This document shows positions 9,223-10,233 of a DNA stretch of 64,000 nucleotides, one piece after another; positions within the stretch are counted from its first letter, which is position 1; every line of letters starts with the position of its first letter. Below the pieces are notes generated by a model. The model was not told the DNA's origin. It saw only the letters and a program-made list of their open reading frames with translations, and ran no database searches. The position numbers and the translations under genes are program-made. This stretch comes from a virus: UHGV virus genome UHGV-1519562; one strand, written 5' to 3'.

Positions 9223-9478
9223 ATTAATAGAAAATAAGAAATACAATATTTTCTATACTAACCAATCAAAATTACTTGAGAGATATTACTACCTAAACTT
9301 CACTCTTAAAAAGAAGGTTCACGGATGGGTCACAAGGCTACGGCTTAACCAAGAAGATAAAACGCCTTTCGCTGAAGAGCGAAACATAAATACTAAGGTT
9401 CAATGATTGGTGACTTCTAAAATCGAAAAAGAACCTTATATAGTGTTGTAGCTCAGTAGGTTAGAGCCAGCGACTTAT

Positions 9479-9964
9479 TTACGTTGATAATTAATATGAA
9501 AGAATTAACAGTTAAAAGAAAAGGTATTCTTACAGAAGAAAGATTAAAATTGTGGTTTTTGTTACAAGGATATTCTGTAAGTGTACCTATCGGAGATAAT
9601 GACAGGTATGATTTTATCGTAGATTTTGATGGTAAATTGATTAAAATGCAAAGTAAAACAAGTAATTTAACTAGAACAGTAGATTGCCTTAATTTTGCAT
9701 GTGCTTCAACTAAATATAATAGTACAGGTTCACATAGAACTAAATATACAAAAGATGATATTGATTATTTTTGTACTATTCATCCTGAAACAAATCAAGT
9801 TTATATTGTACCTGTTGATATTTGCGGAAATGAATGTAATTTAAGATTTGCCGCTCCAAAAAATAATAATTATAATGGAGTAAAAATGGCAAAAGATTAT
9901 GAAGGTGAAAAAATGATTGAAAGGATTTTAAATTCCTAATTAGTTAATTAGGAAAACGTAAATA
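9479..9964 (+). mobile_element. insertion/intron-like element inside the tRNA anticodon loop, flanked by inverted repeat TTATTTACG / CGTAAATAA
   Basis: lies between the complementary tRNA halves; carries ORF 9496..9939; flank repeats extend the anticodon stem by about 9 bp. Confidence 0.4.
9496..9939 (+). CDS. insertion-encoded protein with PD-(D/E)xK / Hjc-like nuclease-fold motifs
   Basis: 147 aa; EERLKLWFLLQGYSVSV...DFIVDFDGKLIKMQSK resembles the Hjc/endonuclease-fold pattern; weak, motif-level only. Confidence 0.4.
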   Translation: MKELTVKRKGILTEERLKLWFLLQGYSVSVPIGDNDRYDFIVDFDGKLIKMQSKTSNLTRTVDCLNFACASTKYNSTGSHRTKYTKDDIDYFCTIHPETNQVYIVPVDICGNECNLRFAAPKNNNYNGVKMAKDYEGEKMIERILNS

Positions 9965-10233
9965 AATCGCTAGACGTGGGTTCAAATCCCAACAGCACTA
10001 CCACTAATAATTTAAATATAATAAAAGTTTGATGTATACAAATGTTGCGTCATTTGAATCCCTCCCTTTGCTACAATCAACATTTGATTTACATTTGGAA
10101 AGAGTGATAGAAAATCACACAGAATTACTTTTAGCCAACCGAGTATCAATGTTATTAACTAAACTTTTTTACTTTTATATTAACATTTAAATTATATCTT
10201 TTAGTTTGCGGTCTAAATTGTAAAACCGCATAT

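What the first reader, a model, noticed from the sequence alone, without database searches (positions are those of the whole stretch)
9442..10003. tRNA gene split in its anticodon loop by a ~490 bp ORF-bearing insertion with no visible group I ribozyme
The two halves are complementary across the insertion (acceptor AGTGTTG with CAGCACT, anticodon stem AGCGA with TCGCT, normal D- and T-arms, encoded CCA). The 9479..9964 insert is almost filled by a 147-aa ORF with PD-(D/E)xK/Hjc-like motifs, leaving no room for a group I core, and it does not end in G. Its ends form a 9-bp inverted repeat (TTATTTACG / CGTAAATAA) that would extend the anticodon stem into a long helix. Bacterial and phage tRNA introns described so far are self-splicing group I introns, and a PD-(D/E)xK homing endonuclease inside a cyanobacterial tRNA group I intron is a known precedent. 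Here the options are protein-dependent excision with religation by the phage Rnl2-like ligase and Pnk/phosphatase in this window, or a recently disrupted tRNA. Precise removal would give loop CTTATAA (anticodon UAU, reading AUA).
Basis: partly seen in the sequence, partly recalled or inferred. Interest (0 to 1): 0.85.

Follow-up and report, generated by a model that had tools for sequence, protein, structure and literature searches.

The report
Ribozyme-less endonuclease gene splitting phage tRNA
A phage tRNA-Ile gene is cut in two, exactly after its anticodon, by a recently mobile 486-bp homing-endonuclease gene with no self-splicing RNA, whose ends pair with the anticodon in a conserved helix; this undescribed class of insert recurs in many gut phages and one cultured Enterococcus phage, and it is either a tRNA-killing selfish gene or a new protein-spliced intron.

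Summary
Window 9442..10003 is a tRNA-Ile(UAU) gene interrupted between nt 36 and 37 by a 486-nt insert (9479..9964). Six sibling phage contigs carry the same gene uninterrupted, with loop CTTATAA.

The 147-aa ORF is an I-Ssp6803I-family PD-(D/E)xK homing endonuclease (Pfam PF11645; fold TM 0.80 to 2OST). No group I core is present: only 42 nt are non-coding, there is no Rfam hit, and the insert ends in A.

The insert is 99.6-99.8% identical between haplotypes whose flanks are 93-95% identical, so it is actively spreading.

The same design recurs in 15 distinct elements in five tRNA species, including cultured Enterococcus phage EFP01. Each is inserted at 36/37, carries 25-45 nt of non-coding sequence, and ends in three bases complementary to the anticodon. 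The insert ends also pair with each other, prolonging the anticodon stem. This helix covaries strongly and uses G·U pairs, so it is selected in RNA.

Whether the tRNA is restored cannot be decided in silico. I put no splicing at about 0.5 and protein-dependent splicing at about 0.35. I found no published description.

The parts
9442..9478 (+). tRNA-Ile(UAU) exon 1 (nt 1-36): acceptor 5' strand, D-arm, anticodon stem 5' strand 9469-9473, loop C32 U33 and anticodon U34 A35 U36 (9476-9478)
   Evidence: Sequence; ARAGORN with introns. It is identical to the 5' part of the uninterrupted gene in sibling contigs.
9479..9964 (+). 486-nt insert (ribozyme-less homing-endonuclease cassette); begins TTACG, ends CGTAAATA
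   Evidence: BLAST breakpoints against six empty-site alleles. No target-site duplication. No Rfam group I hit at E<=10. It is 99.6-99.8% identical between haplotypes whose flanks are 93-95% identical.
9469..9485 (+). 5' arm of the closing helix: anticodon stem strand, loop nt 32-36, then the first 7 insert nt
   Evidence: the repeat finder I1, 17 nt at 94%. It is kept in the MFE fold. Covariation across 14 elements.
9496..9939 (+). Homing endonuclease gene, 147 aa, I-Ssp6803I family (PF11645); no Shine-Dalgarno motif upstream
   Evidence: Pfam 1.8e-30, 106 bits. PDB 2OST 1e-7. AF2 pLDDT 92 and Foldseek TM 0.80 to 2OST. D34, D39, Q52 and K54 are invariant (D43 in at least 90%) among 24 homologues. 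SD survey.
9933..9954 (+). 10-bp hairpin TTCCTAATTA/TAATTAGGAA overlapping the stop codon, just before the 3' helix arm; conserved with compensatory changes in the close family
   Evidence: the repeat finder I12; MFE fold; homologous flanks.
9955..9971 (+). 3' arm of the closing helix: last 10 insert nt (the final ATA pairs with anticodon UAU), A37 (pairs U33), A38, and the anticodon stem 3' strand
9965..10003 (+). tRNA-Ile(UAU) exon 2 (nt 37-76): A37 A38, anticodon stem 3' strand, variable loop, T-arm, acceptor 3' strand, A73, encoded CCA
   Evidence: The spliced product scores 117.0 as tRNA-Ile(tat).

Best explanation
The insert is an actively homing, ribozyme-less cassette that encodes an I-Ssp6803I-family PD-(D/E)xK homing endonuclease. 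The enzyme recognises the near-palindromic DNA of the anticodon stem-loop of phage tRNA-Ile genes (core GCGACTTAT^AATCGC). It cuts empty alleles during co-infection and is copied in by break repair, always between nt 36 and 37. The DNA-level mobility is shown; the cleavage chemistry is inferred from the family. In the transcript, the cassette's last three bases pair with the anticodon, A37 pairs with U33, and the cassette's two ends pair with each other. The anticodon stem therefore continues as a 15-17-bp helix, and the RNA still folds as a tRNA-shaped molecule with the endonuclease mRNA as a giant anticodon 'loop'. That the helix is selected at the RNA level is shown. My preferred reading is that no machinery removes the insert. 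On this reading the occupied allele gives no working tRNA-Ile(UAU). The loss is tolerated because phage tRNAs are accessory and AUA is a rare codon here. The helix then serves the selfish element by keeping the precursor foldable, processable and stable. This last step is inference.
For: Empty and occupied alleles coexist in one phage species, about 12 empty to 5 occupied contigs, with exact boundaries. The insert is 99.6-99.8% identical across backgrounds whose flanks are 93-95% identical. Endonucleases 82-91% identical sit in tRNA-Ile genes with entirely different acceptor stems, which implies horizontal homing. Family membership is supported. No ribozyme is present: no RF00028 hit at E<=10, 25-45 nt non-coding in every element, and the smallest known tRNA group I intron is 184 nt (PMC13011429). 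The helix is 96.7% paired against 68.8% in shuffles (0/500), 13 of 15 pairs change on both sides, and G.U pairs occur. In favour of 'not restored': no EndA, RNase III or RtcB was found among about 30 window proteins. In cultured Schiekvirus phages the insert is in 1 phage of about 28 (2 of 31 GenBank records), and no Enterococcus phage record matched the window's ligase family. Decayed copies sit next to intact, sequence-divergent tRNA-Ile(UAU) genes in L007 and L019. AUA is only 9.4 per 1000 codons. Relatives in T4-, T5- and ViI-like phages are free-standing beside tRNA genes.
Against: Free-standing relatives have no closing helix, so the helix is tied to being inside a tRNA; that fits restoring the tRNA better than serving the mRNA. 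The complementarity tracks the anticodon (ATA, ATC, AGC, GGC) in seven deep endonuclease lineages. All 15 in-tRNA copies have flawless cloverleaf exons, scoring 117-124 when spliced. One phage (L003) carries three adjacent interrupted tRNAs and another (L004) carries two, which would be costly if each were dead. The two junctions lie on opposite strands, 3 bp apart, a geometry suited to a dimeric nuclease. Healing and sealing enzymes are present in this window.
Confidence: 0.5

Rival explanations
1. The insert is a true protein-dependent tRNA intron. The continuous helix presents the two junctions (36|+1 on one strand, -1|37 on the other, 3 bp apart, 3'-staggered) to a host or phage double-strand- or tRNA-specific endonuclease. 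The two tRNA halves stay held together by the cloverleaf, and an RNA ligase seals U36 to A37. The phage's PF09414 ligase with its kinase/phosphatase set, or a host RtcB, could do this. The tRNA is restored, so the selfish gene is nearly cost-free.
For: The helix is strictly in register and covaries with the anticodon in seven deep lineages and five tRNA species. It is absent from free-standing relatives. Exons are intact in all 15 in-tRNA elements. Several interrupted tRNAs occur in single arrays. The window carries an RNA ligase, an AAA_33 kinase, two metallophosphatases, an RlaP-like NTase and a PIN-PhoH2 nuclease/helicase. From general knowledge, T4 Pnkp plus Rnl1 can seal anticodon-loop breaks.
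Against: No candidate endonuclease is identified. The helix has no bulge-helix-bulge motif and its stagger is 3 nt, not the 2 nt of RNase III. The repair cluster has a conventional anti-defence role. No Enterococcus phage record matched the ligase family. The inserts are young and horizontally spreading, so intact exons need no selection. They are at low frequency among cultured relatives. Decayed copies exist.
Confidence: 0.35
2. The insert is a group I intron whose catalytic core overlaps the ORF or is too divergent for the Rfam model, so the tRNA self-splices.
For: PF11645 endonucleases are known inside tRNA group I introns (tRNA-fMet 33/34, tRNA-Arg). 36/37 is a known group I insertion position. 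The 5' exon ends in U. Genuine group I introns (tRNA-Leu(UAA), 760-900 nt, ending in G) occur in the same arrays.
Against: There is no RF00028 match at E<=10 in the window or in three related loci, while the co-resident tRNA-Leu intron does give a weak hit. Only 25-45 nt are non-coding, and in L011 just 14+14 nt, nearly all of it helix. The insert ends in A or C, never G. GC content is 25-37%. The ORF evolves as a protein.
Confidence: 0.03
3. The endonuclease itself, or a complex containing it, cuts the RNA helix. The helix copies the left half of its DNA target and places the junctions opposite positions 33/34 and 36/37, which are the family's two insertion sites. The enzyme would thus act as both homing enzyme and splicing nuclease, leaving 5'-P/3'-OH ends for direct ligation.
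For: The RNA helix sequence AGCGACUUAU equals the DNA half-site. Family insertion sites are 33/34 (fMet) and 36/37 (here), symmetric about nt 35. From general knowledge, tRNA-splicing endonucleases share the PD-(D/E)xK-like fold class. The metal-dependent chemistry would give ligatable ends.
Against: The fold matches DNA enzymes (I-Ssp6803I, Hjc, SPARDA DREN), not EndA. No PD-(D/E)xK homing enzyme is known to cut dsRNA. The helix resemblance follows automatically from pairing with the exon. The I-Ssp6803I stagger could not be retrieved.
Confidence: 0.05
4. The insert is a DNA transposon or IS-like element with terminal inverted repeats, or an assembly chimera.
For: A 17-bp inverted repeat lies at the ends.
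Against: There is no target-site duplication and no transposase. The repeat is partly made of the target's own anticodon stem and contains G.U-type 'pairs' that are meaningless in DNA. The same structure appears in many independent assemblies and in a GenBank isolate.
Confidence: 0.02

Closest known systems
Synechocystis tRNA-fMet group I intron encoding I-Ssp6803I (PF11645; PDB 2OST)
   Same: It has the same endonuclease family and fold, the same kind of target (the pseudo-palindromic anticodon stem-loop of a tRNA gene), and an insertion inside the anticodon loop.
   Different: That intron sits at 33/34 and carries roughly 200 nt of self-splicing ribozyme (and general knowledge). Here the insertion is at 36/37 with only 42 non-coding nt, no ribozyme and no terminal G, and a closing helix pairs the insert's 3' end with the anticodon.
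Archaeal bulge-helix-bulge introns that carry homing endonuclease genes (e.g. rRNA introns with I-DmoI/I-PorI) and split or intron-containing archaeal tRNAs
   Same: These are also ribozyme-less intervening sequences with an endonuclease ORF. Their ends pair with flanking exon sequence to form the recognition helix, and removal is by protein endonuclease plus ligase (general knowledge; PMC6125680 abstract).
   Different: There is no BHB motif here: the helix is continuous, with no 3-nt bulges. The stagger is opposite (exon 1 overhangs 3'), the position is 36/37 rather than 37/38, the setting is a bacterial virus, and no EndA homologue was found. Splicing is unproven.
Free-standing homing endonucleases in phage tRNA clusters (T4 SegB; PF11645 genes beside tRNAs in phi-pp2, My1, Kuttervirus, Sf-FR1)
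   Same: They share the genomic niche and, for the PF11645 cases, the same family. They are mobile by intronless homing, and the tRNA region is the target (SegB in PMC13096335).
   Different: Those genes sit between tRNA genes and leave them intact, and they have no closing helix. Here the gene sits inside the anticodon loop.
Gene-splitting homing endonuclease insertions (Aeromonas phage Aeh1 mobE in nrdA) and RNase III-excised intervening sequences of 23S rRNA
   Same: Each is a selfish or intervening sequence placed inside a functional gene without a self-splicing element, and tolerated by the host. The 23S IVS ends form a helix that is cut out of the RNA (general knowledge).
   Different: Split NrdA and fragmented 23S rRNA work without rejoining. 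A tRNA nicked in its anticodon loop does not, so either ligation or loss of function must follow here.

Membership tests
Group I self-splicing intron | Conserved catalytic core (P3-P9) detectable by covariance model; enough RNA to build it | tested here: not met
   There is no RF00028 hit at E<=10 in window 9000-13200, and none in the PF11645 inserts of L001, L003 or L004. Only 42 nt are non-coding (25-45 nt in 14 relatives), against a minimum of 184 nt for known tRNA group I introns.
Group I self-splicing intron | Terminal guanosine (omega-G) at the intron's 3' end | tested here: not met
   The insert ends ...AAATA. Relatives end in A, T or C. Co-resident tRNA-Leu introns do end in G.
Group I self-splicing intron | Self-splicing in vitro with guanosine cofactor | not testable with these tools
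   This needs a T7 transcript of 9442..10003.
I-Ssp6803I-type PD-(D/E)xK homing endonuclease (PF11645) | Sequence membership above the curated threshold | tested here: met
   PF11645 scores 106.2 bits against a cutoff of 26.1, E 1.8e-30, over residues 7-136. 2OST phmmer E 9.8e-8.
I-Ssp6803I-type PD-(D/E)xK homing endonuclease (PF11645) | Restriction-endonuclease-like fold matching 2OST with conserved acidic/Lys motif | tested here: met
   AF2 pLDDT 92.1. Foldseek top hit 2OST_A, TM 0.80, E 4.6e-10, followed by Hjc. G33-D34, D39 and Q52-x-K54 are invariant in 24 homologues, and D43 is conserved in at least 90%.
I-Ssp6803I-type PD-(D/E)xK homing endonuclease (PF11645) | Mobility: precise presence/absence at one site, with the element more conserved than its flanks | tested here: met
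   also EFP01 against 29 sibling genome records.
I-Ssp6803I-type PD-(D/E)xK homing endonuclease (PF11645) | Site-specific cleavage of the empty allele | not testable with these tools
   This needs purified protein and the substrate AGCGACTTATAATCGCT.
Protein-spliced (BHB / EndA-type) tRNA intron | Bulge-helix-bulge motif: two 3-nt bulges separated by 4 bp at the junctions | tested here: not met
   The junctions lie in a continuous helix with no bulges, 3 bp apart and with the opposite stagger.
Protein-spliced (BHB / EndA-type) tRNA intron | Canonical position 37/38 | tested here: not met
   The insertion is at 36/37 in all 15 elements.
Protein-spliced (BHB / EndA-type) tRNA intron | EndA-family splicing endonuclease encoded by virus or host | tested here: inconclusive
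   None was found among about 30 window ORFs scanned. The ORF itself is not EndA-like. The rest of the roughly 130-kb genome and the host were not available.
Protein-spliced (BHB / EndA-type) tRNA intron | Ligated mature tRNA and excised intron in vivo | not testable with these tools
   No RNA data are available.
DNA transposon / IS with terminal inverted repeats | Target-site duplication and a transposase | tested here: not met
   No duplicated bases occur at the junctions. The only ORF is a PF11645 nuclease. The inverted repeat tolerates G.U-type positions.

The most novel reading that the evidence does not exclude
These inserts are a previously unknown class of protein-spliced tRNA introns in bacterial viruses. 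They are ribozyme-free and carry homing endonucleases. Their splice sites are defined not by a bulge-helix-bulge but by an in-register extension of the anticodon stem, in which the intron's last three bases read the anticodon. A dimeric or ruler-type endonuclease cuts both strands 3 bp apart, and an RNA-repair ligase reseals the loop. This would be the bacterial-world counterpart of archaeal HEG-bearing BHB introns, and a possible snapshot of how ribozyme introns become protein-dependent.
Probability: 0.35. Interest if true: 0.92.

Novelty: new variant of a known kind. Interest (0 to 1): 0.7.

Why it matters
Every bacterial and phage tRNA intron described so far is self-splicing: group I, or rarely group II. 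Here a known homing-endonuclease family sits in the same niche without any ribozyme, and it does so repeatedly. I found 15 distinct elements in five tRNA species and seven deep enzyme lineages, from gut Firmicute-type phages to a cultured Enterococcus phage.

If the tRNA is restored, bacteria or their viruses have an unrecognised protein-based tRNA splicing route. That bears on the old question of how BHB introns arose from ribozyme introns. If it is not restored, this is a clear case of selfish genes eroding phage tRNA arrays. It would also show an unexpected RNA device, a natural 'tRNA scaffold' around an mRNA, and visible traces of an arms race in resistant tRNA variants.

There is also a practical point. 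Default tRNA finders miss these genes, and intron-aware ARAGORN mis-calls them as ochre-suppressor tRNA(UUA). That could seed false claims of stop-codon recoding in phage surveys.

EFP01, with about 27 intron-less sibling isolates (29 GenBank records), makes the question directly testable.

Tried and rejected
1. Group I intron. Rfam at E<=10 gave nothing in the insert, so I rejected it.
2. Small self-cleaving ribozyme built from the UTRs. The hammerhead-like 'UGAUAA' lacks the essential G8 and is missing in L001. In L011 the UTRs are 14+14 nt of plain helix. Rejected.
3. BHB motif. No alternative pairing gives bulges. Rejected.
4. K-turn or loop-E reading of the conserved TGATAA/AGGAAG internal loop. 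It does not fit the consensus and occurs only in the close family. Dropped.
5. A 3'-end Shine-Dalgarno-like AGGAAG acting after intron circularisation. The spacing is too long, and the motif is explained as the complement of the coding TTCCT in the 3' hairpin. Dropped.
6. A DNA-level origin for the anticodon complement (staggered-cut fill-in, hairpin 'P-nucleotides'). Staggered cuts give direct duplications, not inverted ones, and hairpin chemistry is not expected for this fold. Rejected in favour of RNA-level selection.
7. RNase P or RNase Z mimicry at the junctions. There is no RCCA-like tail and the distances are wrong. Rejected.
8. ORF-less 'mini-introns'. The candidates L008/L009 3007-3131 turned out to be YrlA-like tRNA-like RNAs.
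9. Searches that led nowhere:
- a megablast of the window region against GenBank phages;
- a viral-contig scan with the single protein;
- a metagenome DNA-pattern scan, which gave only five loci;
- Zhao et al. 2007, which is not held, so the I-Ssp6803I cleavage stagger could not be checked.
10. The L003 1546-2078 PF11645 insert in an odd tRNA-like gene could not be parsed.
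Full report
**1. The observation**

Window 9442..10003 contains the two halves of a class I tRNA separated by 486 nt. Default ARAGORN lists 16 tRNAs in the window and misses this one. With introns allowed it reports a tRNA at exactly 9442..10003 with a 486-nt anticodon-loop intron, score 102.8.

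The ends form a 17-nt inverted repeat at 94% complementarity, 9469-9485 against 9955-9971. This is the 5-bp anticodon stem, a C32·A38 mismatch and then 11 further pairs. The minimum-energy fold of the 562-nt precursor keeps the cloverleaf, this extended anticodon helix and a 10-bp hairpin over the stop codon; z = -5.4 against shuffles.

The insert is almost filled by a 147-aa ORF at 9496..9939.

**2. Exact boundaries and the mature anticodon**

The splice point is ambiguous from the sequence alone. Different cuts would give UAU, UAA or UUA, and ARAGORN chose 'tRNA-Stop(tta)'.

I resolved this by looking up contigs that encode the neighbouring 102-aa protein (window 8885..9193).
- Six distinct sibling contigs (L025, L026, L028-L030, L034) carry an uninterrupted tRNA-Ile(tat) at the orthologous place. 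In four of them the exons are identical to the window's; L025 and L034 differ by one base in the anticodon stem.
- Four others (L027, L031-L033) carry the insert.
- Window 8885-9478 and 9965-10700 are contiguous in the empty alleles at 95-98% identity.

The insert is therefore exactly 9479..9964. It lies between U36 and A37, has no target-site duplication, and the mature loop is CTTATAA. Spliced at 36/37 the product scores 117.0 as tRNA-Ile(tat), better than ARAGORN's own placement. L027 is 100% identical to the window over the 1816 nt compared.

**3. The ORF**

- It matches Pfam PF11645 (PDDEXK_5) at 1.8e-30, 106 bits against a cutoff of 26.
- It matches I-Ssp6803I (PDB 2OST) at 1e-7 by sequence.
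- An AlphaFold model (pLDDT 92) has 2OST as its top structural match (TM 0.80, E 5e-10). Hjc resolvases and SPARDA nuclease domains follow. EndA does not appear.
- Among 24 homologues at 54-91% identity, G33-D34, D39 and Q52-x-K54 are invariant, and D43 is conserved in at least 90%.

It is a DNA homing endonuclease of the family first found in the Synechocystis tRNA-fMet group I intron.

**4. No ribozyme**

An Rfam scan at E ≤ 10 gives no group I match in the insert. The same is true for the homologous inserts in L001, L003 and L004. A co-resident 815-nt tRNA-Leu intron in L001 does give a weak group I hit (18.7 bits, E 0.71, far below Rfam's 50-bit threshold) and ends in G.

Only 17 + 25 nt of the insert are non-coding. 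Across 14 relatives the range is 25-45 nt, and L011 has just 14 + 14 nt, nearly all of it helix. Known bacterial tRNA group I introns are 184-894 nt (PMC13011429). The insert ends in A, not G.

**5. It is mobile now**

Counting the 'similar places not shown', roughly 12 empty and 5 occupied contigs were returned for this phage species. The insert is 484-485/486 identical between haplotypes whose flanks are 570/613 and 672/708 identical. That is 1-2 differences where about 30 would be expected, the signature of recent horizontal spread.

Endonucleases 82-91% identical to the window's sit in tRNA-Ile genes with entirely different acceptor stems (L035, L036, L038, L017). Those genes share only the anticodon stem-loop core xxCGACTTAT^AATCGxx, which is presumably the homing site.

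**6. It is a class, not a one-off**

Seventy-five protein clusters at 31-99% identity exist in public metagenomes. I examined every locus I could fetch and found 14 distinct in-tRNA elements.
- tRNA-Ile(UAU): ten elements.
- tRNA-Ile(GAU): L004a, L003c.
- tRNA-Ser(GCU): L003a.
- tRNA-Gly(GCC): L004b.

They fall into six deep endonuclease lineages, down to 33% identity. A fifteenth element, in a seventh lineage, is in a cultured phage. In Enterococcus phage EFP01 (Schiekvirus, KY549443.1), tRNA-Asn(GUU) is split by an unannotated 463-nt PF11645 insert. The 29 other Schiekvirus records (about 27 isolates) have the uninterrupted gene, and the breakpoints again fall at 36/37.

One phage array (L003) has three adjacent interrupted tRNAs, and another (L004) has two.

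**7. The common architecture**

All fifteen elements share the following features.
- The insert lies between nt 36 and 37.
- A37 pairs with U33.
- The last three insert bases are the reverse complement of the anticodon: ATA for UAU, ATC for GAU, AGC for GCU, GGC for GCC. For GUU the bases are AGC, with a U·G pair.
- The first 5-8 insert bases pair with bases -4 onward.

The two junctions therefore lie on opposite strands of one continuous helix, 3 bp apart, with exon 1 overhanging 3'.

I scored the 14 metagenomic elements on a gap-free alignment.
- 96.7% of cells form standard pairs, against 68.8% in column shuffles (0 of 500 reach the observed value).
- 13 of 15 pairs show changes on both sides.
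- Sliding the register by 1-3 nt drops pairing to 31-46%.

The helix sequences differ completely between lineages (TTACG/CGTAA, TTTCG/CGAAA, TTGTCG/CAACGA, TTTTTCAA/TTGAAAAA, CTTTAAT/ATTAAAG). G·U pairs occur. L039 is 90% identical in protein to the window but ends in ATC rather than ATA; its 5' exon lies off the contig.

I could find no DNA-level mechanism that yields an inverted copy of the anticodon at the far end of the insert. Staggered cuts give direct duplications. I conclude that the helix is selected in RNA.

**8. What argues that the tRNA is not restored**

- About 30 window proteins were scanned and none is an EndA, RNase III or RtcB homologue.
- The window's RNA ligase is a weak DraRnl/PF09414-like match, just under the Pfam threshold. 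It is not clearly Rnl2. With the AAA_33 kinase, two metallophosphatases, the RlaP-like NTase, PIN-PhoH2 and nearby YrlA-like RNAs, it forms a standard repair cluster against host anticodon nucleases (PMC7824862).
- That ligase family gave no hit in any Enterococcus phage record, yet EFP01 carries the same kind of insert.
- The insert is in only one of about 28 cultured Schiekvirus phages.
- Decay does occur. In L007 the 3' exon is gone and a different, intact tRNA-Ile(UAU) lies just downstream. In L019 the cassette keeps a perfect 16-bp closing helix but has no tRNA body, and it sits 38 nt upstream of an intact, divergent tRNA-Ile(UAU).
- L025 and L034 carry a stem variant (AGTGA) that may be a resistant allele.
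- AUA is a rare codon in this phage, 9.4 per 1000 against 67 for AUU, so losing the tRNA should be cheap.
- Because the inserts are young, intact exons do not by themselves show selection.

**9. What argues that it is restored**

- PF11645 relatives that sit beside tRNA genes lack any closing helix. These include phi-pp2, My1, Kuttervirus, Sf-FR1, EalM-132 and L008/9. The helix appears only when the gene is inside a tRNA, and there it always appears.
- The helix is always in exact register with the anticodon stem and reads the anticodon.
- All 15 in-tRNA copies have flawless exons, scoring 117-124 when spliced.
- Arrays with two or three interrupted tRNAs would be costly if all were dead.
- The 3-bp, 3'-staggered geometry suits a dimeric nuclease.
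- Sealing of anticodon-loop breaks by phage enzymes is established chemistry (general knowledge: T4 Pnkp/Rnl1).

**10. Weighing**

I started from a low prior for an unknown bacterial splicing route and updated on the points above. That gives roughly 0.5 for no restoration, where the helix serves the cassette's own RNA as a tRNA-shaped scaffold. It gives 0.35 for protein-dependent splicing, 0.05 for the endonuclease itself cutting the RNA, 0.03 for a hidden group I core, and the remainder for other explanations.

The DNA-level account (a homing cassette, inserted at 36/37, currently spreading) is secure at above 0.9. Only the fate of the RNA is uncertain.

**11. Context**

The phage is about 130 kb and 30% GC. 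It uses strong Shine-Dalgarno sites and has gyrase, NrdD, an intein-bearing helicase and SLH-domain proteins. Its Pol III-type polymerase is 39% identical to that of SPbeta-like Bacillus phages. The host is probably a gut Firmicute. Samples of origin look like human gut metagenomes.

**12. Novelty**

Five full-text searches and targeted reading found no description of ribozyme-less PF11645 inserts in phage tRNA genes.
- The 2026 survey of bacterial tRNA introns lists PF11645 only inside group I introns.
- The Jug-phage paper counts 80 stand-alone PDDEXK_5 genes without tRNA context.
- The EFP01 record annotates only 'hypothetical protein' at this locus.

I classify the finding as a new variant of a known kind. 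It would become categorically new if splicing were demonstrated.

Noticed in passing
window 9442..10003 and L012-15, L022-24, L027, L031-33, L035: Intron-aware ARAGORN places the intron after nt 35 and calls these genes tRNA-Stop(tta), i.e. ochre suppressors. The true product is tRNA-Ile(UAU). Co-resident tRNA-Leu(UAA) group I introns are also mis-called 'Stop tta'. This could create false signals of TAA recoding in phage surveys.
   Followed up: yes
Enterococcus phage EFP01 KY549443.1 about 105242-105777 (L040 1432-1967): An unannotated tRNA-Asn(GUU) is split at 36/37 by a 463-nt PF11645 cassette. The 29 other Schiekvirus records have the intact gene. This is a culturable test system.
   Followed up: yes
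window 10604-10711, 11166-11295; L003 5628-5727; L004 4207-4326, 4986-5142; L008/L009 3007-3131: YrlA-like, tRNA-like RNAs (Rfam RF02553, 25-31 bits, below threshold) follow tRNAs and are often introduced by a GACACATACAGCAA motif. Together with the DUF2828/DUF7788 protein (21535-23058) and the RNA-repair cluster, they may form a Ro/Y-RNA-like module.
   Followed up: partly
window 24599-33316: An RNA-repair gene cluster: RlaP-like NTase (weak), metallophosphatase, PF09414/DraRnl-like RNA ligase, YqeY-like protein, AAA_33/PSTK-like kinase, a second metallophosphatase, and PIN-PhoH2.
   Followed up: partly
window 12158-12230: A tRNA with an 8-nt anticodon loop (anticodon read as 'tgaa'), 33% GC. 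It is conserved in L037. It may be a frameshift-type or degenerate tRNA.
   Followed up: no
window 11476-11952: A free-standing GIY-YIG homing endonuclease lies inside the tRNA array with no Shine-Dalgarno motif. Sibling contigs carry GIY-YIG genes of different lengths (170, 210 aa) at this place.
   Followed up: partly
window 49500-51779: A superfamily-1 helicase has an embedded LAGLIDADG_3 domain, probably an intein.
   Followed up: no
L003 1650-2030 and 3001-3447; L010 2483-2926; L039 ORF; L019 2127-2197: In-frame TAG codons fall at conserved Gln positions of the endonuclease ORFs, including the catalytic Q-x-K, and tRNA(CUA) genes are nearby in L010 and L019. These relatives are TAG-to-Gln recoded phages carrying the same kind of insert.
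   Followed up: partly
L014 1200-2050; L016 3556-4546; L001 4319-5225: tRNA-Leu(UAA) genes carry 760-900-nt introns at 34/35 that end in G and hold other endonuclease ORFs (173 aa, HNH_3, 148 aa). These are classical group I plus HEG. The L014 gene sits 13 nt after the tRNA-Ile and is absent from the window.
   Followed up: partly
L025 and L034, about 3071-3146: The empty-site tRNA-Ile(UAU) allele has a C-to-T change in the anticodon stem (AGTGA/TCGCT, giving a U.G pair). This is a candidate endonuclease-resistant target variant.
   Followed up: no
L019 2470-2965 (also L018, L020, L021): The cassette (72% identity) is flanked by a perfect 16-bp inverted repeat, GCGACTTGTTTTCGTC/GACGAAAACAAGTCGC, but has no tRNA body. 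It sits after a 64-aa ORF and 38 nt upstream of an intact, unusual 91-nt tRNA-Ile(tat). It is either an ectopic insertion into a hairpin or the remnant of a decayed tRNA.
   Followed up: partly
L007 2445-2975: An intact 5' tRNA half and closing helix (..GCGACCTTAT|TTAAC ... GTTAAATA|) are present but the 3' exon is missing. A different, intact tRNA-Ile(tat) lies immediately downstream. In L008/L009 the related endonuclease is free-standing, after that tRNA.
   Followed up: partly
L004 4154-4646: A GOLLD RNA match (144.8 bits, just under the 150-bit gathering score) lies inside the phage tRNA array.
   Followed up: no
L003 1546-2078: Another PF11645 ORF lies between an AGGAGGG... 5' end and a ...GTGGGTTCGAATCCCACCCCTCCTACCA 3' end of a tRNA-like gene whose middle I could not fold into a standard cloverleaf.
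   Followed up: partly
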